A DNA stretch of 64,000 nt from Candidatus Atabeyarchaeum deiterrae (GTDB lineage: Archaea; Asgardarchaeota; Atabeyarchaeia; Atabeyarchaeales; Atabeyarchaeaceae): NCBI GenBank assembly GCA_037310415.1, contig CP147780.1, positions 1,696,001 through 1,760,000 on the forward strand. The letters run 5' to 3'. Shown in pieces: positions 52,228 through 61,158 of the stretch; position 1 is the stretch's first letter; each line of letters starts with the position of its first letter. The notes under the pieces are model-generated. The model made no database searches, was not told the origin of the DNA, and saw only the letters and a program-made list of their open reading frames with translations. The position numbers and the translations under genes are program-made.

Positions 52228-53304
52228 ATGAGTGCTGCATTTCTATTCATTCCCGACCTAGCAGAAGACCTTGGTGCAGACAACACCATGGTCGGGATTA
52301 TCGGCGCTGTCTATGCTCTGGCACTCTTCATCTCTTCATATATCTTCGGGAGAGCATCGGACATCCATGATAGAAGACTCATCATCAAAATAGGGCTTGC
52401 ACTCTCGGTGTTGACCTTTCTAATGCAAGCGCTCGCCGATCCATATTTCTTCGCTCCGCTTCTAAGCAACCCCACACTGCTCACACTTGTCCGATTCCTT
52501 GCAGGCTTCACAGCTGGAATCAGCCCGGCCGCACTTACGGCGTACGTTCATGACGCGAAGGGTAGAATGGGGAAGTTCTCTGCATATGGGTCACTCGGCT
52601 CAGGAATCGGAACACTGATAGCTGGCTTCATCGCAATATATTGGGGCATATTTATCGTAAGCTCTCTGTGTTTCCTCATGGCATTCCTAGTCTCATTATC
52701 AATGCCCTACCGTAAGTGCACACCGCTCAAGATCTCTTTCTTCCCAAAAACTCTAATGAAAAGGAATTGGTACGTTTACATATCGTTCTTTCTCAGGAAT
52801 CTTGGGGCTAACGCTATATGGGTTGTTTTTCCGCTTTTCATCATAAGCATCGGAGGCGACAAGTTCTGGATTGGAATCATCTACACAATCAACTGGTTTG
52901 GTCAATTCATCATCATGTCATTCCTTGACCGATTCAGGGGTAGAAGGCTGCTGGGCGCTGGTCTTCTTCTATCCACTGTTGCATTCATAGCATTCACCTT
53001 TGCTCAGCAATACTATGAGTTGATTCCCATGCAACTGCTGATTGCATCTGCCTGGTCATGCCTGTACGTCGGCGCGCTCGTCTATCTAATGGAGAATAAC
53101 ATCGAAAAAGCCACGTCAACGGGAGTCCTCAACTCAGCATCCAATCTATCAGTAGTTTTCGGAAGTCTGTTAGGAGGTATCGTCTCAGAGCTCTTTGGCT
53201 ACCCCGCAATAATGTATGTCGCAGCGATACTAACACTGCTTGGCTACGTCATCTTCAAGATTGGAGTTAGGAAAGTACTCACGCCTGGATCTCTCGCGAA
53301 GTAG
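52228..53304 (+). CDS. MFS transporter
   Basis: GRASDIHDRR motif A, about 12 TM. The reading frame extends upstream to 52183 with no canonical start. Confidence 0.88.
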   Translation: MSAAFLFIPDLAEDLGADNTMVGIIGAVYALALFISSYIFGRASDIHDRRLIIKIGLALSVLTFLMQALADPYFFAPLLSNPTLLTLVRFLAGFTAGISPAALTAYVHDAKGRMGKFSAYGSLGSGIGTLIAGFIAIYWGIFIVSSLCFLMAFLVSLSMPYRKCTPLKISFFPKTLMKRNWYVYISFFLRNLGANAIWVVFPLFIISIGGDKFWIGIIYTINWFGQFIIMSFLDRFRGRRLLGAGLLLSTVAFIAFTFAQQYYELIPMQLLIASAWSCLYVGALVYLMENNIEKATSTGVLNSASNLSVVFGSLLGGIVSELFGYPAIMYVAAILTLLGYVIFKIGVRKVLTPGSLAK

Positions 53305-53720: not shown

Positions 53721-54620
53721 ATGTTGGAGTTCTCCATACGCCCGTTTACCCTCAACGACGTGGATTTCGCGGTTCGAGTGACGGGCAAAGAGCACTGGGG
53801 CTACACAAAAGAAGACTTCACGCTAGTGTTTCTAGCGGAGCTCGGAGAACAATTCATAGCCGAGGAGGACATAACAAAGCAAAAAATGGGAATGCTGTCA
53901 ACCTTCAAGTATGGAGGGAAACTCGCTTGGATCGGGAATGTAATAGTCCAGGAAGACTTTAGGGGAAAAGGAATAGGGACAGCTCTCTTGAAGCACGCTA
54001 TCAGACACCTCAAGAAAGAAGGAGTAAAGACGATAAGGCTGTACAGCTACCAAGAATCCGCGTCACTATACCAAAAACTCAGCTTCACTCGTGAAGGAGT
54101 CACCGGTCTATTCACAAAGAGAGGCTCGACGCAGTTCTCAAATGATGATGATGAAATAAATGAAGTCAAAGCTAGACTTTCGACCGCAGACAAAGTCGAC
54201 TTGGAACGACTAATAGATTTCGACGGAAAATGCTTTGGCGCCGATCGTCGAAGACTCCTGACATCAACAATTCACAGCGAGAATGCAAAGTGTTTCGTCA
54301 AAGTGAACGACAAAAGCAAGAAAAACATAGTCGGCTACATCATAGCTACCGAAGGAAAACGCGAGTTTAGCGTGGGTCCATGGGTCTGCGACCCGGGCCG
54401 CGTGGATGTTGCTGAAGCGCTCATCAGAGCAGTTATGGACCAAGCTGAGGGAAAGAAGATCACTGCAGCGACACCGTTGGAGAACGCTGAAAGCGTAGGA
54501 ATCTTGGAGAAACTCAAGTTTACGAGGACCATAGAGGTCCTCAGGTTGCGCAAAGAAAGGGACCTTTACAACGGAAAACCAGAGTGGATATTCGCTGCAG
54601 GAGGAGTGGAAAAGGGATAA
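53721..54620 (+). CDS. GNAT family N-acetyltransferase (tandem GNAT)
   Basis: WIGNVIV...FRGKGIG acetyl-CoA loop, LYQKL, FGADRRRLL, VGPW. Confidence 0.9.
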   Translation: MLEFSIRPFTLNDVDFAVRVTGKEHWGYTKEDFTLVFLAELGEQFIAEEDITKQKMGMLSTFKYGGKLAWIGNVIVQEDFRGKGIGTALLKHAIRHLKKEGVKTIRLYSYQESASLYQKLSFTREGVTGLFTKRGSTQFSNDDDEINEVKARLSTADKVDLERLIDFDGKCFGADRRRLLTSTIHSENAKCFVKVNDKSKKNIVGYIIATEGKREFSVGPWVCDPGRVDVAEALIRAVMDQAEGKKITAATPLENAESVGILEKLKFTRTIEVLRLRKERDLYNGKPEWIFAAGGVEKG

Positions 54621-54744
54621 ACGGACAAGGTAGACCTAGGGGGCCGGACACGGTTCAGAGTGGGGCCGTTTCTTGGATCGGAAATAAAAGCAAATTCATG
54701 TGGCGTGGATAGACGAGCACGGAACCAAGCTTGAGGGATATCGA

Positions 54745-55695
54745 ATGGACATCGTCTCACTTGGCGAAGCCATGGTTGAGTTCTTTTGTGATGGGCTGAT
54801 TTCCAAAGCAAAGGTCTTTCAGAAATCGATAGGTGGTGACACATCTAACACGATTATTGCAGCCGCCAGGCTCGGAAGCAAATGCGGCTATATCACAAAG
54901 GTAGGAGAAGACCCATTCACGGAGTACCTGATGAGAAAATGGAAATCAGAAATGATTGATGTATCAAGCATCATACGTATGGCAAATGGATTCAACGGGA
55001 TCTACTTCATTTCCCTCCTACCAGAGGGGCAGAGAGAATTCACATACTACCGGACAGGAAGCGCCGCATCTACCATCACACCACAGGACTTGAAACAGGA
55101 TTATATAGGTTCGGCAAGAATCCTTCATACCAGCGGAATCAGCCAAGCCATATCCAAAACGTCATTGGACACTGTTCAGGAAGCCATCCACATCGCCAAG
55201 AAGAATGGCGTCAAGGTGTCATTCGACCCCAACTACAGAGCCAAACTCTGGACCAAGGAGAGAGCACTGAAGACATACGAGGAGATCCTACCTTATGTGG
55301 ACATTGCTCTTCCAGATGAATCCTACGGTGACCTCATCCATCAAACCAACCCAAGGGAGATCATCAAGTACTTCTCAAGGTTTAAGATCCCAGTTATCGC
55401 ACTGAAACTGGGATCGAAGGGTATGTTGTTGAAGACACTGAACGAAGAAGTCAGATCCTTTGGAATACTTGAAGTTAATGTGAACGACACGACCGGTGCT
55501 GGAGACGCCTTCAATGGAGGATTTCTGCATGGCGTATGCGAAGGCTATTCAACAGATGACTCCGCGCTCCTTGGGACGATAACTGCGGGTTTGAAAGCGA
55601 AAGGGCGGGGTGCAGTCGAGTCACTTCCACCGAGGAAGGACGTATACGAACTTCTAAAGGCAATAAAAAAAGGAGAGAAACATTTAACGCCTTAG
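54745..55695 (+). CDS. PfkB family sugar kinase (2-keto-3-deoxygluconate kinase-like)
   Basis: GEAMVE, GGDTSN, FDPNYRAKLW, DTTGAGDAF. Confidence 0.92.
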   Translation: MDIVSLGEAMVEFFCDGLISKAKVFQKSIGGDTSNTIIAAARLGSKCGYITKVGEDPFTEYLMRKWKSEMIDVSSIIRMANGFNGIYFISLLPEGQREFTYYRTGSAASTITPQDLKQDYIGSARILHTSGISQAISKTSLDTVQEAIHIAKKNGVKVSFDPNYRAKLWTKERALKTYEEILPYVDIALPDESYGDLIHQTNPREIIKYFSRFKIPVIALKLGSKGMLLKTLNEEVRSFGILEVNVNDTTGAGDAFNGGFLHGVCEGYSTDDSALLGTITAGLKAKGRGAVESLPPRKDVYELLKAIKKGEKHLTP

Positions 55696-55790: not shown

Positions 55791-55824
55791 ATAGACAACA
55801 TAACTCAATTAAGGTGAAAATGAG

Positions 55825-56517
55825 TTGAGTCTTGCAATTCCACAAGTGAATATGAGTCCGAAAGGCGAACTAATACCAAATCCTGGCGAAAACGTAGTGC
55901 AGAATTATCACGACGTCCACTACGAGAAAAATGAAGGAGAAATCTACGTTACCGACGTTCGCCTTGTGTGGATTGGATTGAAACACAAGGGCGGCATGCT
56001 CGGAAAACTAGCCCGAGCTGCAGTAGTAGTAGGAGCAATCGCTGCAGGCGCAGCTGTCGGCTCTAGAGCTGGTAGGGCGATCGGAGCACCCGGCGTAGGA
56101 GGATTAGCAGGAGGAATTGGAGGTCTAACGCTAGCGACAATGATGACAAAGCATCCAGATGGCACTCCAACAACAATATCTGTACCCTACGAAGTTGTTA
56201 CAGACATCCAGGTTGCAAAGAACAAACAGGACCTGACAATGTCGACACAAGTAGGATCATTCCTATTCAGATTTGACAAAGGTGGAGCAGAAACAGTTGC
56301 TACCGTAGCTAAAGCACAGAAACTGGCAGCGCAGAAAAGACCAGCACCGCCGCCACCAATGCCTCAGTATCAACAACCGCAATATCAGCAGCCGCAATAC
56401 GCCCCTCAGCCACCACCGCGAGCTGGCGGAGCCTTCTACTGTCCTCACTGCGGAACGCCACAAGAACCTGGCGCAAGATTCTGCCACAACTGTGGGGCAA
56501 GGGTTGACGCCTACTAG
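55825..56517 (+). CDS. GRAM/GLUE-like PH-fold protein with a Gly-zipper insert, Pro/Gln/Tyr linker and C-terminal zinc ribbon
   Basis: PNPGENVV...EGEIYVTDVRLVWI; PQYQQ repeats; CPHCG...FCHNCG; AGGTGA SD. Confidence 0.75.
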   Translation: MSLAIPQVNMSPKGELIPNPGENVVQNYHDVHYEKNEGEIYVTDVRLVWIGLKHKGGMLGKLARAAVVVGAIAAGAAVGSRAGRAIGAPGVGGLAGGIGGLTLATMMTKHPDGTPTTISVPYEVVTDIQVAKNKQDLTMSTQVGSFLFRFDKGGAETVATVAKAQKLAAQKRPAPPPPMPQYQQPQYQQPQYAPQPPPRAGGAFYCPHCGTPQEPGARFCHNCGARVDAY

Positions 56518-56570
56518 AAAAGCGCGCAGACCGCAACTCTCACGCTGCAGGATGCGCCCTTGAATCCAAT

Positions 56571-56606
56571 CCCTATTTCTTTCTTTCTTGTCTTGTTTCT
56601 TCTCTG
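56571..56606 (+). terminator. Pyrimidine/oligo-T tract, probable terminator
   Basis: CCCTATTTCTTTCTTTCTTGTCTTGTTTCTTCTCTG, about 55 nt after the 56517 stop. Confidence 0.5.
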
Positions 56607-56794
56607 TTAGCTGGTTTCCGCGAAGCTGTTCGTGGATTTCCCTGAACCTCTTTCTCCTAGGATAGCATCCTCAATAGTCTGTCAGTTTGGCAGCATTGAT
56701 GGCTTTCTCAATCTCTGGGAAGATCTGCCTTTTGCGCATCACATTCTTTCGCGACATGTCGGCGACTCAGTCACAACAAAAACCACCGTTGAAG

Positions 56795-57160
56795 CACCGC
56801 CCTCTACAAGGCGGAAAATGTATTGTGAACTCGTCTAGAGCGCATTTCGAGTAGAGCGACTCATTGTAAAAAGGGCAGTCCTCGGAGGCTGAGGAATACT
56901 CCGAAAGGAGGGCCTTAACACGTTCTTCTATTAGAAGAGGATTTCGGAAATGGTTCAGTGTTTCGTCAACCATTAGGGTGGGTGCCTCCAGCCTCCGAAG
57001 AGAGCCATAGAGATCTATTGGATAGAGTGGTAAGAAGGGCTAGGGGGACATCCGTAAAAGTGAATGATGGAAGAGGTCACGAAGGTTTCAACTGGAAGAA
57101 TCAAGGATATGTTTTGCAGGGTCTTAACTTGAGGGCCAGTTGTATTTGCCCCCCAATGTT
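56795..57160 (+). ncRNA. Candidate structured non-coding RNA
   Basis: Nested stems: TCGGAGGCTG/CAGCCTCCGA (10 bp), CTCC-GAAA-GGAG, TCTTCT/AGAAGA, AATGGTT/AACCATT, and CAACTGG/CCAGTTG enclosing TCAAG/CTTGA; no long ORF. Confidence 0.3.
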
Positions 57161-57245
57161 GGAAGAGGCGTGGCAATGCCGTACTCCAGCAGGAAAGAGA
57201 GCAAAAAGGAGAACTGGCAAGTGCGGTTTCAGGTTGACCCTATCC

Positions 57246-58286
57246 TTAGCCTGAGCCCATTGCCTCGCTGAGCTTAACCTTCCAGCCCATCACTTTCTCA
57301 ATCAGGCTCTGTTTCTCGTTTCTGTCGAGAGATCTGCCTGGATATCTATTCAAGTCCCGAGCTACTTGCGCAAGGTCGTATATTGCGCCGAATTTGCGGG
57401 TCATGCCCATGATCCTGTCGCGAACATCTAAGATGGCCTTCGCTGCTGTTCCAGCATTCATATTCATCGCTTCTTCGATCGGACCGAATATCTCGTCCAC
57501 TGAACTGGAGACCGCTCGCGGAGCGCCATACATCGGTGGTGGTCTACTAGGCGCCTGAGATAGTGAGGGTGTCATGGATGGTGGCGGACCGCCTGAAGTC
57601 GGAATAGCCCTTCGATCCGCAGAAAGTGACGGTGGTGTTGCTGCAGGAACAGCTGGCTGCTCTGGTGCTGTTTCTCTGGCAGCAGAAACTTTTGTTCCTT
57701 GGAGAGTTTGAAGTGCAGTTCTTGAGGCTTTTTCGAGACCCCTCACTGCTTCCAATGCTTGTAAGCCTGTTTCCTTCAGAGTGATCATCTGAGCGTTAAC
57801 CTCTCCAAGGTTTAGGCTCTCCACTATTCTCCTTGAGACTTCGCTGGCCTCAGCTGGCTGCAGAGAAGGCGTCTTGGCTGCCTGTAAGCTCTCGTTAATG
57901 GTTCTGACTGCCCCGAGTGCCTTTTCACTTTCGGTTCTGATCGCAACTACCTGCTTAGTGGCTTCTCCTATGTCCGGAGCCTTGAAGGATTGCAGTCCCT
58001 CCAAGGTTTGCTTCGATGATTCCTCAAGGAGCTTCAAAGCTTCAAGGGATCTCTGTGTACTCTCTCTGAACAGAGTCAGATGTTCAGCTACCTCTTCTAG
58101 TTTGATAACAGTATTGGTCAGCGGTGCGACCATGTTGTCGACCTGTGCTAGCAACTTGTTGACACGCAAGCCGACGTCGTCGGTCAACGCCTTGAGAAAA
58201 GTGATAATCTGATCAACTTCCTTGATCAAATCATTTGTCTTCATGCCAACTTTCTTCTCAATCTCTGTTTCTTCAGTTTCTCCCAA
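57246..58286 (-). CDS. Coiled-coil protein with a Pro-rich linker and a C-terminal four-helix bundle (Vps28-CTD-like pattern)
   Basis: Heptad N-terminal ~200 aa; P/S/A-rich linker; C-terminal ~85 aa helical domain. TTG 58286 follows GAGGTG. Confidence 0.8.
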   Translation of the reverse strand: MGETEETEIEKKVGMKTNDLIKEVDQIITFLKALTDDVGLRVNKLLAQVDNMVAPLTNTVIKLEEVAEHLTLFRESTQRSLEALKLLEESSKQTLEGLQSFKAPDIGEATKQVVAIRTESEKALGAVRTINESLQAAKTPSLQPAEASEVSRRIVESLNLGEVNAQMITLKETGLQALEAVRGLEKASRTALQTLQGTKVSAARETAPEQPAVPAATPPSLSADRRAIPTSGGPPPSMTPSLSQAPSRPPPMYGAPRAVSSSVDEIFGPIEEAMNMNAGTAAKAILDVRDRIMGMTRKFGAIYDLAQVARDLNRYPGRSLDRNEKQSLIEKVMGWKVKLSEAMGSG

Positions 58287-58522
58287 TTCTAGAAAGCACC
58301 TCTCTAGCTTGACCCCTTCCTCAAACATCCTCAGGGAACTCTGAGAATGCCAGGTGGTCTCTGTTTCGAGACATTTCACACAGATGTAATTAGCTTCTCT
58401 GTATTATAATACCTTTGCGATTGAGTGCCGACATCAGAGACTAATGCCAACAGAATCTCAACGCTGATCTAAAAGAGCGTCGAAGCAAATCCGTGTTGGC
58501 AAATACAGTTTCGGTGCGCTGC

Positions 58523-58804
58523 TTATAGTTCAGCTTCCATTGTTCTCTTTAACAGCCTCATGACATCGAGGGAACCAGTCTTTTCATAGAACTCCTTCAT
58601 GCGTGCAATGCAGAACTCGACTCCATGTGACCTATTGCCGAAGGTTACCTTCTGAACCATGGAGTCGACCCAATCAAGTAAGTTCTTGTCGATAGACAGA
58701 GTAGTAGCAGCTTTGCTTCCTGTTGCTTTTCCGTTTGGTTTCCCGCTCAACGTGACGGTAACTTCAGGAACCTTCGGAAGCTTGGGTCTTCGTCCCATAA
58801 CCAA
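58523..58804 (-). CDS. Ribbon-helix-helix (CopG/NikR-like) DNA-binding protein
   Basis: TTLSIDKNLLDWVDSMV...FGNRSHGVEFCI pattern. Confidence 0.8.
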   Translation of the reverse strand: MVMGRRPKLPKVPEVTVTLSGKPNGKATGSKAATTLSIDKNLLDWVDSMVQKVTFGNRSHGVEFCIARMKEFYEKTGSLDVMRLLKRTMEAEL

Positions 58805-59175: not shown

Positions 59176-61158
59176 TTGAATAGTCAAAAACATGGGAAAA
59201 TGAGGGGAACTAATAAGACGCCAACAAAAGTGAATCTATTGGCAGTAGCACTAATCACCACGTGCATCATTGTGTCGACCTCCCTAATAGGTCTGACGAC
59301 CACCAGAGCAACCGTAGGCGGAGTCGACAACGAGGATCTCCCTATTGGAAACATGAGACAAGTTCCGTTGGACATCAAAATCGTTTTCATCGGAATAAAA
59401 CAGCAATATATCAACATCACAGACGGGTACTTCAATTGGACACTGCCGCCTTACCACATCCAGAGAGAAACATGGTATGGAACCAACTGGGGGGTAAACT
59501 ACACTTTCAACTACAGCTACAGTCTTAACCAGACATTCGACGATGACTTCTTCAACTACATTCACTTCGGGGCAGGAGTCAGGAAAGATGTCCTTGGCCT
59601 AACCAACCCCTATAACGGACTAGGCGGGACGTACCGCTTCTACAACGCGAACAAGGTGGACGACTGGCTTTACAGCAACCCTCAGGGCTACGGCGGGATC
59701 CCCACAAAGGGATACGCACTTTTCCTAATCAACGTGACATACAGGGACTCATACATCCCTTCAGTCAGACAACACTACTACAATCTGACTTACAGCGACA
59801 TAGACTCAACTGGGATCGTAACGGGAGACTGGTATGGTCAGTGGATGACAGGATGGGGAGGACATCATCGGCTTTACTATATTGACTTATCAGCAGGTGT
59901 AAGCGCGGCATCGGTGGCGGCATTCGGCCCCGCTCAACGGTGGTGGAACCGCTACTTCCCGCCTCTATGGAATCTCAATATCAACTTGGGAACGGAGAAC
60001 GGCATCAATTTCTTCAACAAGTACTTATCCGACTTCGTCTTCGGGGCAGTCTACGATTGCTTCACACCAGACTTCCTCTATGCGCCAAGGATAGCGCCGA
60101 CGCCGAACATGCACTACAACATAACGATAGTCATCTTTGACAACTGCACAGACTATGCGAATAAGACACTTGAAGGAGCACTCCCACCCTATGGTCCGGA
60201 TTTTGCCATAAACCAGTCAGCGATTTTGAAGGCTTTCAGAAGTTTGGTGCCTTATGCGACATGGACACTGAACCTCACTCACGTTCACCAAGTAGGACCT
60301 GGACCTGGTCCCTATGGCACTCTGTGGCAAGTAATCAGGAGCGCTGAGAGGACAACTGATGCATTTGGGAACCCAGTGCAATATGTCGACAGAGATATAC
60401 TCTACCATCACTTACAGGCACATCTCGCAGACTTCGGTCTCAGGCAATCGGCAGGGCAGCTTCTAATACCCGTCTTCGTGTTCGCCTTCAAAGGCACATT
60501 CAACTTGGGGTACCAATATGAGGGATACGAGTACGATAACTACTGGGGATTTGGATACCCAGACGTTGTTCTTGTAAGCCACTCACTCTATGACCTAACA
60601 GGTATACCTCCACCGCCGCCTCCAGTGCTATTCCCGGCGGTTCCTCAAGGCTTCACACAGACGATAATACACGAGACTGGTCACGCTGTTGGTTTGATTC
60701 ACCCATTCTGGTGGGACTACGACGAGGACTATGTATCATCAGCTATGGCTTACTACCCGTACGAGTACGGGTTTAGCCAGTTCGACAAAGACGCCATACA
60801 AAGGGGGCACGCAGACTACTACATAATCCGGGCTCTATCCATGATGGAGAACGCGACAGTGCTCAAAACCACAAGACAAATGACCGCAGCACTCCTCAAG
60901 CTATACAACCAAGCAACTGGAAACCTGACCACGGCCAACACGGATTATGCAAGCATGAACTACTATCCTGCGATGACCAATGGAAGTACGGCTCTCAGCC
61001 TATTCGCGCAGTTTGTACTTGGAGCAAGTGGGCAACCTCTGCTCACCACCTCAGCAGCACCCCCTGATATTATGGTTCCGGTAATTGCTTCAGTTATAGT
61101 GGGGATCGTAGTAGGTGTAGCTATAGGGCAATTCATGGGAAGAAAACGAAAGAAATAG
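59176..61158 (+). CDS. Membrane-anchored extracellular zinc metalloprotease (metzincin-like)
   Basis: Signal/anchor N-terminus, HETGHAVGLIH, SAM Met-turn, C-terminal TM + RKRKK, many N-x-S/T sequons. Confidence 0.85.
   Translation: MNSQKHGKMRGTNKTPTKVNLLAVALITTCIIVSTSLIGLTTTRATVGGVDNEDLPIGNMRQVPLDIKIVFIGIKQQYINITDGYFNWTLPPYHIQRETWYGTNWGVNYTFNYSYSLNQTFDDDFFNYIHFGAGVRKDVLGLTNPYNGLGGTYRFYNANKVDDWLYSNPQGYGGIPTKGYALFLINVTYRDSYIPSVRQHYYNLTYSDIDSTGIVTGDWYGQWMTGWGGHHRLYYIDLSAGVSAASVAAFGPAQRWWNRYFPPLWNLNINLGTENGINFFNKYLSDFVFGAVYDCFTPDFLYAPRIAPTPNMHYNITIVIFDNCTDYANKTLEGALPPYGPDFAINQSAILKAFRSLVPYATWTLNLTHVHQVGPGPGPYGTLWQVIRSAERTTDAFGNPVQYVDRDILYHHLQAHLADFGLRQSAGQLLIPVFVFAFKGTFNLGYQYEGYEYDNYWGFGYPDVVLVSHSLYDLTGIPPPPPPVLFPAVPQGFTQTIIHETGHAVGLIHPFWWDYDEDYVSSAMAYYPYEYGFSQFDKDAIQRGHADYYIIRALSMMENATVLKTTRQMTAALLKLYNQATGNLTTANTDYASMNYYPAMTNGSTALSLFAQFVLGASGQPLLTTSAAPPDIMVPVIASVIVGIVVGVAIGQFMGRKRKK

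What the first reader, a model, noticed from the sequence alone, without database searches (positions are those of the whole stretch)
55825..58804. Possible ESCRT-I/II-like bridging module: GLUE/GRAM-Zn-ribbon gene facing a Vps28-CTD-like coiled-coil gene
Seen: a PH-like + Zn-ribbon protein (55825-56517) and a coiled-coil/Pro-rich/four-helix protein (57246-58286) lie convergently, with an RHH regulator upstream of the latter. Known: in yeast, the Vps36 GLUE (PH) domain and its NZF zinc finger bind the Vps28 C-terminal four-helix bundle, linking ESCRT-II to ESCRT-I. Inference: these two genes could encode stand-alone archaeal versions of both halves of that interface, outside a canonical ESCRT cluster. 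Convergent orientation means they are not co-transcribed, so the adjacency may be chance.
Basis: partly seen in the sequence, partly recalled or inferred. Interest (0 to 1): 0.78.

Follow-up and report, generated by a model that had tools for sequence, protein, structure and literature searches.

The report
Asgard PH-zinc-ribbon and Vps28-C-like genes
Two neighbouring genes of an Atabeyarchaeia-like Asgard archaeon encode a GLUE/GRAM-like PH domain with a zinc ribbon and a coiled-coil protein ending in a divergent Vps28-C-like domain, but only a lineage-restricted adjacency links them, so a stand-alone ESCRT-I/II bridge remains an untested idea.

Summary
The genes are real and both domain guesses hold. 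The proposed pairing is not supported.

**Gene B (57246-58286, -):** coiled coil, Pro-rich linker and a conserved 90-residue C-terminal domain. With a deep family alignment this domain matches the Asgard Vps28 C-terminal domain by profile-profile comparison (probability 76-94%, E 1e-7 to 2e-5; controls 0.2%). Pfam's VPS28 model does not detect it. The family occurs in 46 of 81 sampled Asgard genomes.

**Against a bridge:**
- The genome has a canonical Vps4-Vps25-Vps22-Vps28-Vps23 cluster 1.4 Mb away.
- A and B adjoin only in Atabeyarchaeia and close relatives, where the surrounding block is syntenic too.
- Thor-like genomes carry both families unlinked, and other families carry only one.
- Neither family lies near ESCRT genes.
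- A conserved 68-aa Cys-rich gene sits between A and B.

B is a new member of the known Asgard Vps28-C-domain proteins. A is a membrane-tethered PH/zinc-ribbon adaptor of unknown partner.

The parts
55825..56517 (+). Gene A, 230 aa: split GRAM/GLUE-like PH domain, P/Q-rich linker, C-terminal zinc ribbon
   Evidence: ORF. 25 homologues. AF2 model mean pLDDT 72, and 87-96 in the PH core. An RNA-library contig of 739 nt at 100% identity spans 55824-56562, the gene plus 45 nt.
55894..55977 (+). PH strands 1-3 (aa 24-51), holding the conserved motif TD.RLVW
   Evidence: Weak BBL5, PH_TFIIH and Vps36_ESCRT-II Pfam hits fall in this stretch.
55987..56154 (+). Gly/Ala-rich hydrophobic insert (aa 55-110) with GxxxG glycine-zipper motifs; putative membrane hairpin
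   Evidence: pLDDT < 50. Kyte-Doolittle maximum 1.74 over residues 62-80, and zipper motifs at 75-104. The insert is conserved, and longer, in Thor-like homologues.
56173..56337 (+). PH strands 4-7 and C-terminal helix (aa 117-171)
   Evidence: VIA alignments span residues 2-175.
56338..56433 (+). Pro/Gln-rich (PQYQ repeats) disordered linker (aa 172-203)
56434..56508 (+). Zinc ribbon CPHC-x10-CHNC (aa 204-228), PF13240 type
   Evidence: Pfam E 1.9e-8. All four Cys are invariant. About 30 similar ribbons in the genome.
56767..56973 (-). Conserved 68-aa Cys-rich ORF between A and B, downstream of B on the same strand
   Evidence: 66% identical to L002:4101-4304 and 61% to an uncalled ORF at L001:9559-9765. 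Family found in 29 of 81 Asgard genomes.
57246..58286 (-). Gene B, 346 aa (ORF open to 58379): coiled coil, Pro-rich linker, Vps28-C-like domain
57699..58286 (-). N-terminal helical/coiled-coil region. The first 80 residues are nearly invariant, followed by about four repeats of the type S.KALE(A/T)(V/I)K.
   Evidence: Alignment. Long helices at pLDDT 60-80. Only generic helical-hairpin matches.
57534..57698 (-). Pro-rich, low-complexity linker
   Evidence: pLDDT < 50.
57249..57533 (-). Conserved C-terminal domain (motif ARELxxYPxRxLD...W...L), a divergent Vps28-C-like helical bundle
   Evidence: hhalign against Asgard Vps28-CTD: 85% with E 6e-6, 94% with E 1.4e-7, 76% mapping to columns 92-190 of full-length Vps28. 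ESM-Atlas TM 0.73 to a eukaryotic Vps28 cluster.
58523..58804 (-). Gene C, 93 aa: basic N-terminal tail plus a probable ribbon-helix-helix fold
   Evidence: NikR/CdrS N-terminal hits at E 0.04-0.14. 81% identical copy in the same position in G012. Not found with this query in four Thor-like genomes.

Best explanation
A and B are two separately transcribed, functionally independent Asgard genes. Their adjacency is synteny inherited within Atabeyarchaeia and close relatives.

Gene A is most likely a membrane-tethered adaptor.
- Shown: a GRAM/GLUE-class PH fold is interrupted by a Gly/Ala-rich glycine-zipper insert.
- Inferred: the insert dips into or crosses the membrane as a hairpin and holds the PH domain at the cytoplasmic face.
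- Inferred: a flexible P/Q-rich tether presents a generic zinc ribbon as a docking knob for an unknown partner.

Gene B is most likely an elongated scaffold or adaptor.
- Shown: a conserved N-terminal helical rod and a Pro-rich linker.
- Shown at profile level: the C-terminal helical domain is a divergent relative of the Vps28 C-terminal domain.
- Inferred: by analogy with Vps28-C and with the Asgard Vps28-C multidomain proteins of Makarova et al. 2024, this domain is a protein-docking module. It may dock onto ESCRT-II-type winged-helix proteins, and the rod would bind something else.

B belongs to an Asgard-wide paralogous family, with 3-5 copies in this genome. Gene C is a small RHH-type regulator upstream of B. 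A Cys-rich mini-protein gene follows B.
For: Fold of A:
- AF2 model.
- Foldseek top hit Vps36 GLUE, E 2e-4.
- Family-wide weak Pfam hits to PH_TFIIH, BBL5, PH_30, Sharpin_PH and Vps36_ESCRT-II.

Insert and ribbon of A:
- Hydropathy and GxxxG motifs. The insert is conserved in distant homologues.
- PF13240 ribbon, with about 30 copies in the genome.
- A paralogue with the same architecture: PH plus ribbon, 181 aa.
- An RNA-library contig covers exactly gene A.

C-terminal domain of B:
- hhalign 85-94%, with controls at 0.2%.
- A Vps28-CTD HMM hits 10 of 40 family members and both Thor-like B orthologues.
- Atlas TM 0.73.
- The N-terminus of B is unlike the Vps28 N-terminus.
- Family breadth: 46 of 81 genomes.

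Independence of A and B:
- Canonical ESCRT cluster at 341-348 kb and ESCRT-III at 521 kb; the window lies at 1.70-1.76 Mb.
- Adjacency is seen only in G000 and G012, in metagenomic contigs L001 and L002, and is compatible in G023.
- In ten Thor-like genomes both families are present, on different contigs or 230 kb apart.
- Family f12 has A in 9 of 9 genomes and the B family in 0 of 9.
- No Vps28-C-like domain lies within 8 kb of A homologues in f6, f12 and f18.
Against: - The block GNAT - A - small genes - B is kept at only about 55% protein identity in L002, although other neighbours changed there. That is slightly more than trivial synteny.
- The homology of B's C-terminal domain rests on profile-profile scores from alignments I built. 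With close orthologues only, it falls to 8-26%. Pfam VPS28 hits no family member.
- The AF2 model of this domain has modest confidence.
- Membrane insertion of A's insert is inferred from composition only.
- No partner is known for either protein.
Confidence: 0.55

Rival explanations
1. A supplies in trans the GLUE-like PH domain and zinc finger that Asgard Vps22 lacks. Its zinc ribbon or PH domain docks onto the Vps28-C-like domain of B, or of canonical Vps28. This would form an archaeal counterpart of the yeast Vps36(GLUE-NZF1)-Vps28(CTD) bridge.
For: - Both domain classes are present.
- The zinc ribbon has the same CX2CX10CX2C spacing as NZF fingers (read from the sequence).
- Asgard archaea lack Vps36 (Hatano et al. 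2022, PMC9192718). For Odinarchaeota an undetermined ESCRT-I/II bridging factor is postulated.
- Adjacency is kept across Atabeyarchaeia-like relatives down to about 55% identity.
- A known Asgard ESCRT-I candidate also combines zinc ribbons and a PH domain (Znr_PH_CC_SB, PMC10936438).
Against: - The genes converge and are separated by another conserved gene.
- The pair is unlinked in all ten Thor-like genomes that carry both.
- Family f12 has A without the B family, and many families have the B family without A.
- Neither family lies near Vps28, Vps25 or ESCRT-III in contiguous genomes.
- The ribbon is a generic, highly repeated module with no zf-RanBP signal.
- In Loki- and Heimdallarchaeota, ESCRT-I binds Vps22 directly in Y2H, so no GLUE bridge is required.
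Confidence: 0.1
2. The C-terminal domain of B is only a convergent small helical bundle. B is a generic Asgard coiled-coil scaffold unrelated to ESCRT, for example cytoskeletal, apolipoprotein-like membrane-coating, or translation-associated.
For: - No Pfam VPS28 hit in any of 19 members, and no Vps28 chain in PDB profile searches.
- hhalign gives only 8-26% with shallow alignments.
- No ESCRT neighbourhood anywhere.
- A Helarchaeota member sits inside the ribosomal-protein operon between S17 and L14.
- Relatives give weak apolipoprotein or coiled-coil Pfam hits.
- Short helical bundles reach TM > 0.5 easily (caveat printed).
Against: - Full-length colinear profile-profile alignments reach 76-94% and map specifically to the CTD of full-length Vps28.
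- The score stays at 92% after the ten bridging sequences are removed. Reversed and unrelated helical controls give 0.2-0.3%.
- The invariant Trp and the conserved Pro of the family align with the near-invariant Trp and Pro of Vps28-C.
Confidence: 0.25

Closest known systems
Vps36 GLUE domain (yeast 2CAY, human EAP45 2HTH/2DX5)
   Different: 8-12% identity. Statistically tied with BBS5, MTMR2-GRAM, NF1 and Lam6. The insert lies between strands 3 and 4 and is a glycine zipper, not NZF fingers between strands 6 and 7. The zinc ribbon is C-terminal and of the PF13240 type. There is no EAP30/winged-helix region. The gene is not in the ESCRT cluster.
GRAM-like PH domains (BBS5, myotubularin GRAM, Lam6, TFIIH p62) and prokaryotic bPH domains
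   Different: No family reaches its Pfam cut-off. The combination of glycine-zipper insert, P/Q tether and zinc ribbon is not a feature of those families.
Asgard Znr_PH_CC_SB family (cog.011556; Makarova et al. 2024, PMC10936438)
   Same: An Asgard-specific protein combining zinc ribbons with a PH domain that is expected to be membrane-associated. Homologues of A in families f12 and f18 carry up to three ribbons.
   Different: The order is reversed (PH before ribbons). A has no coiled coil and no steadiness box. No sequence was available here for a direct comparison. A search for longer fused forms found none.
Vps28 C-terminal domain (PF03997, C-terminal half)
   Same: Profile-profile match of B's C-terminal domain family over 65-87 columns at 76-94% probability. 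Conserved Pro and Trp align. Always at the extreme C-terminus, as in Vps28.
   Different: Below Pfam detection. The N-terminus is a long coiled coil and Pro-rich linker, not the Vps28 core/steadiness-box hairpin. Not encoded with Vps22/Vps23. The genome has its own full-length Vps28.
Asgard multidomain proteins carrying Vps28-C (with adaptin appendage, longin, TPR, HTH/PCI; PMC10936438)
   Same: A Vps28-C-type module fused to an unrelated module, encoded outside the core ESCRT cluster, in several paralogues per genome. Atlas neighbours of B's domain include TrmB-fused and UFM1-ligase/PCI-fused Asgard proteins.
   Different: The partner module here is a coiled-coil rod. Whether this architecture is already in that paper's catalogue could not be checked. 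The domain is more divergent than those that PF03997 detects.

Membership tests
Vps36 / ESCRT-II GLUE | PH-type beta-sandwich with C-terminal helix, superposable on GLUE | tested here: met
Vps36 / ESCRT-II GLUE | Sequence match to PF11605 (Vps36_ESCRT-II) | tested here: not met
   No hit for A. 3 of 25 family members at E >= 0.07. The genome-wide best hit (E 0.12) is in another gene.
Vps36 / ESCRT-II GLUE | C-terminal EAP30 tandem winged-helix region that builds ESCRT-II | tested here: not met
   A is 230 aa and ends in a zinc ribbon. No EAP30 hit. The EAP30 genes lie elsewhere.
Vps36 / ESCRT-II GLUE | Phosphoinositide and ubiquitin binding | not testable with these tools
   Needs liposome and ubiquitin binding assays.
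NZF (RanBP2-type) zinc finger | W-x-C-x2-C-x3-N-x6-C-x2-C signature and a zf-RanBP profile match | tested here: not met
   The Cys spacing is the same, but the Trp and Asn positions are Phe/Tyr and Gln/Leu. Pfam gives Zn_Ribbon_1, Zn_ribbon_3 and DZR, with no zf-RanBP at E <= 1.
Vps28 (ESCRT-I subunit) | C-terminal helical-bundle domain homologous to Vps28-C | tested here: met
   hhalign A7 vs A4: 85%, E 6e-6. 94% and 92%. 76% onto columns 92-190 of full-length Vps28. Controls 0.2-0.3%. Shallow alignments give only 8-26%.
Vps28 (ESCRT-I subunit) | Four-helix-bundle fold of the C-terminal domain | tested here: inconclusive
   The AF2 model shows two or three helices at pLDDT 59-79. Atlas TM 0.73 to a Vps28 cluster, from a low-confidence model. 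The domain was barely tested in the VIA search.
Vps28 (ESCRT-I subunit) | N-terminal core/steadiness-box hairpin that binds Vps23 | tested here: not met
   hhalign of B's N-terminus against full-length Asgard Vps28: 0.8%. No Vps23_core or VPS28 Pfam hit.
Vps28 (ESCRT-I subunit) | PF03997 gathering score | tested here: not met
   No hit for B or any of 19 family members. The only genomic hit is the canonical Vps28 at 344 kb.
Vps28 (ESCRT-I subunit) | Encoded with Vps22/Vps23 in the ESCRT cluster | tested here: not met
   1.4 Mb from the cluster. No family member lies next to Vps28, Vps25 or ESCRT-III (nearest 30 kb from Vps25, in G037) in the genomes compared.
Asgard Vps28-C-containing multidomain proteins (Makarova 2024) | Vps28-C-type domain fused to an unrelated module, outside core ESCRT-I | tested here: met
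   Coiled coil, Pro-rich linker and Vps28-C-like domain. The kind is described in PMC10936438. Binding to ESCRT-II was not tested.
Ribbon-helix-helix regulators (CopG/NikR-N/CdrS) | N-terminal beta-strand plus two helices matching RHH profiles | tested here: inconclusive
   Four NCBIfam models hit residues 34-63 at E 0.04-0.14. No Pfam hit.
PH_gly_zipper (PF27000) | PH domain combined with a glycine zipper | not testable with these tools
   The family is named only on 10% of one bacterial Atlas cluster at feature score 0.81, which is a lead only. It is not in the local Pfam copy.

The most novel reading that the evidence does not exclude
The A family is the free-standing archaeal forerunner of the N-terminus of Vps36. 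On this reading, a membrane-bound GLUE-like PH domain with a zinc finger docks in trans onto Vps28-C-type domains (B, its paralogues or canonical Vps28). The eukaryotic ESCRT-I/II bridge would then have arisen by fusing such a module to a Vps22 paralogue.
Probability: 0.08. Interest if true: 0.85.

Novelty: new member of a known kind. Interest (0 to 1): 0.4.

Why it matters
Asgard archaea lack Vps36, and how their ESCRT-I and ESCRT-II connect is only partly known. A free-standing GLUE-like PH/zinc-finger protein binding a Vps28-C-type domain would show how that eukaryotic interface was assembled.

The evidence here does not support that pairing, but it adds two usable facts:
1. A coiled-coil family found in 46 of 81 sampled Asgard genomes carries a Vps28-C-like domain too divergent for Pfam to detect. 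This enlarges the set of candidate ESCRT adaptors, and it includes Thor-like genomes in which PF03997 found no Vps28.
2. A PH/zinc-ribbon family with a glycine-zipper insert is a plausible membrane anchor that can be tested directly.

Tried and rejected
- **Co-folding of A with B's C-terminal domain** (alignments A1 and A3): 'no answer', score 0.00. This counts neither for nor against binding.
- **PDB profile searches** with A2, A3 and A7 found no Vps28 chain. A weak HslV similarity explains JGI's 'HslVU' label on some homologues.
- **Atlas search with the 171-aa paralogue** was uninformative because the Atlas model is poor.
- **B against the coiled-coil protein beside Vps23** in the ESCRT cluster: no similarity.
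- **Search for longer, fused forms of A's PH domain:** none found, which is weak evidence.
- **PF27000** is not in the library.
- **Vps23_core search for a Znr_PH_CC_SB-like gene** in this genome found only Vps23 itself.
- **Representative-library search with A3** gave 14 hits. Two are HNH_repeat homing-endonuclease proteins that score through repeated short motifs, and I judged them spurious.
- **Rfam and tRNA scans** of the region found nothing.
- **The sigma-70 promoter and terminator scan** is not meaningful for an archaeon.
- **RNA runs:** no contig covered B, C or the small ORF in the four runs laid. This is no evidence of silence.
Full report
**Setting.** The window is positions 1,696,001-1,760,000 of a single-contig 2.76-Mb genome. 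Homologues carry source names such as Atabeyarchaeia, Njordarchaeota and Thorarchaeota, so the organism is an Atabeyarchaeia-like Asgard archaeon. The gene order around the finding is: MFS transporter, GNAT acetyltransferase (53721-54620), PfkB kinase (54700-55695), gene A (+), a small ORF (-), gene B (-), gene C (-), a 660-aa membrane-anchored protein (+) and a P-type ATPase (+).

**Gene A (55825-56517, +).**
- Pfam detects only a C-terminal zinc ribbon (Zn_Ribbon_1, E 1.9e-8), plus a faint BBS5 hit at residues 19-50.
- An AF2 model built from 25 homologues gives a confident PH-type sandwich: strands 24-51 and 117-150, helix 155-171, with blocks at pLDDT 87-96. A low-confidence stretch at residues 55-110 interrupts it. 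A disordered P/Q linker and the ribbon follow.
- Foldseek ranks yeast Vps36 GLUE first (2cay, E 2e-4, TM 0.63-0.66). Lam6, NF1 Sec-PH, BBS5, MTMR2 and TFIIH p62 follow.
- Sequence signals agree with the class and single out no member. An A1 profile hits BBS5 at E 0.004. Across 25 family members the weak Pfam hits are PH_TFIIH (8), BBL5 (6), PH_30 (6), Sharpin_PH (5) and Vps36_ESCRT-II (3, best E 0.07).
- The insert is Gly/Ala-rich. Its hydropathy maximum is 1.74 over residues 62-80, and it has GxxxG zipper motifs at 75-104. It is conserved, and longer, in distant Thor-like homologues. I infer a membrane-inserting hairpin.
- The ribbon (CPHC-x10-CHNC) is of a type found about 30 times in this genome. 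A 181-aa paralogue has the same PH-plus-ribbon architecture.
- Homologues in two other Asgard families carry two or three ribbons.
- A contig from a wetland metatranscriptome library, 739 nt at 100% identity, spans 55824-56562. That is gene A and 45 nt beyond it. This is compatible with a monocistronic, nearly leaderless mRNA, although contigs cannot prove transcript ends.

**Gene B (57246-58286, -).**
- Homologue starts and a database record favour the TTG at 58286, giving 346 aa.
- The protein has a nearly invariant N-terminal helical segment, about four S.KALE(A/T)(V/I)K-type repeats, a Pro-rich linker and a strongly conserved C-terminal domain of about 90 residues. No Pfam family matches.
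- The C-terminal domain has two tandem paralogues in this genome, of 169 and 171 aa.
- It also has relatives elsewhere with the same architecture of coiled coil, low-complexity linker and C-terminal domain.
- In a sample of 81 Asgard genomes the domain family occurs in 46, always at the extreme C-terminus.

**Is B's domain Vps28-C-like?**
- With shallow alignments, profile-profile comparison to 24 Asgard Vps28 C-terminal domains is insignificant (8-9%).
- I then took 40 further family members from Asgard genomes. The 59-sequence alignment A7 gives 85% with E 6e-6.
- Against a 42-sequence Vps28-C alignment it gives 94% with E 1.4e-7 over 83 colinear columns.
- Removing the ten members that the Vps28-C HMM itself detects leaves 92%. 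Restricting to core Vps28 gives 69-84%.
- Against full-length Vps28 the match maps to the C-terminal domain, columns 92-190, at 76%.
- Reversed sequences, B's own coiled coil and the PH alignment all give 0.2-0.3%.
- The ESM Atlas lists a eukaryotic Vps28 cluster (TM 0.73, 92 residues) among structural neighbours of the domain. Asgard-only clusters, including TrmB- and UFM1-ligase/PCI-fused proteins, appear beside it.
- The N-terminus of B is unlike the Vps28 core.
- My reading: B carries a divergent Vps28-C-like domain (about 0.75 probability) but is not a Vps28 orthologue.
- Makarova et al. 2024 already describe many Asgard multidomain proteins with Vps28-C and propose them as ESCRT-0-like adaptors that bind ESCRT-II. 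B fits that kind with a new partner module.

**Is there a bridge?**
- The genome has a canonical cluster of Vps4, Vps25, Vps22 (EAP30), full-length Vps28 (PF03997, E 8e-16), UEV-Vps23 and a JAB protease at 341-348 kb. ESCRT-III lies at 521 kb.
- A and B converge, and a conserved 68-aa Cys-rich ORF lies between them.
- Their adjacency is seen in the own genome, in the second complete Atabeyarchaeia genome (G012), and in contigs L001 and L002. There GNAT, and mostly PfkB, the 635-aa protein and the ATPase, are syntenic as well.
- In G023 both genes lie about 1 kb from contig ends, which is compatible with adjacency but does not resolve it.
- In ten Thor-like genomes (family f6) both families are present, on different contigs or, in G074, 230 kb apart. 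There A lies between an MFS transporter and F420 ligase/Topo VI, and B lies beside a D-aminoacyl-tRNA deacylase.
- Family f12 has A in 9 of 9 genomes and the B family in 0 of 9. Many families have the B family without A.
- No Vps28-C-like domain lies within 8 kb of A homologues in f6, f12 or f18.
- No A or B-family hit lies next to Vps28 in the 81 genomes. None lies next to Vps25 or ESCRT-III in five contiguous genomes, where the nearest is 30 kb away.
- A Helarchaeota B relative sits inside the ribosomal-protein operon.
- Y2H data show direct ESCRT-I to Vps22 contacts in Loki- and Heimdallarchaeota.

**Gene C** is 81% identical, and in the same position, in G012. Its RHH assignment rests on weak hits.

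**Verdict.** The functional pairing has no support beyond lineage-restricted adjacency.
- Most likely, A is a membrane-tethered PH/zinc-ribbon adaptor.
- Most likely, B is a coiled-coil adaptor with a Vps28-C-like docking domain, one of several paralogues.
- The trans-bridge idea is not excluded. I rate it at about 0.1.

Noticed in passing
window 56767-56973 (-): Conserved 68-aa Cys-rich ORF (CPFY...C...PPC.GRCF.NGFCC) downstream of B. It was uncalled in one relative. The module occurs in 29 of 81 Asgard genomes, both as stand-alone proteins of 86-115 aa and inside open frames of 200-450 aa. No Pfam family matches.
   Followed up: partly
window 59176-61158 (+): 660-aa protein with an N-terminal hydrophobic segment, a C-terminal membrane anchor and an HETGHAVGLIH (HExxHxxGxxH) metzincin-type zinc-protease motif. 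Only a faint Astacin hit (E 0.08).
   Followed up: no
L024:1267-1776 and 1894-2409 (+) = G000:C1 about 2,376,700-2,377,800: Tandem pair of 169- and 171-aa proteins whose C-terminal halves are paralogues of B's C-terminal domain. The same tandem pair occurs in G012 and G023.
   Followed up: partly
L016:1489-2034 (-) = G000:C1 about 579,800-580,400: 181-aa paralogue with the same architecture as A (PH-like domain, linker, zinc ribbon) but without the glycine-zipper insert. Weak bPH_3 (E 0.04) and Vps36_ESCRT-II (E 0.08) hits.
   Followed up: partly
L055:7001-7870 and L056:4339-5208: A 289-aa member of the B family is encoded inside the ribosomal-protein operon, between S17 and L14, in two assemblies (GCA_005191425.1, GCA_054387055.1).
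   Followed up: no
genomes of family f6 (for example G074, G054): In ten Thor-like genomes PF03997 found no Vps28 at E <= 1e-5. Every one has a 340-425-aa B-type protein, and my Vps28-C HMM hits the two examined at E 2e-5 and 3e-6. These could be the Vps28-C carriers of that lineage.
   Followed up: partly
G070:C1:154076-154348, G064:C145:1169-1447, G039:C36:77934-78206: PF03997 matches limited to the C-terminal domain, inside open frames of about 790-800 aa. This agrees in size with an Atlas cluster annotated DDRGK/UFM1-ligase/PCI (788 aa).
   Followed up: no
L003, L004, L060, L128 and window 52228-53304: MFS transporter genes recur beside or near A homologues in three Asgard families. In Thor-like genomes one lies directly upstream on the same strand.
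   Followed up: no
L059:577-4476 (-): 1299-aa protein with a TrmB HTH domain and long apolipoprotein-like helical repeats, two genes from the Thor-like B orthologue.
   Followed up: no
L014:6260-7228 (+) and window 54700-55695 (+): A PfkB-family kinase gene precedes Vps4 in the ESCRT cluster, and another PfkB gene precedes gene A. Probably coincidence.
   Followed up: no
window 55824-56562: A metatranscriptome-library contig matches gene A end to end and begins one base before the TTG start. This suggests a leaderless monocistronic mRNA.
   Followed up: partly
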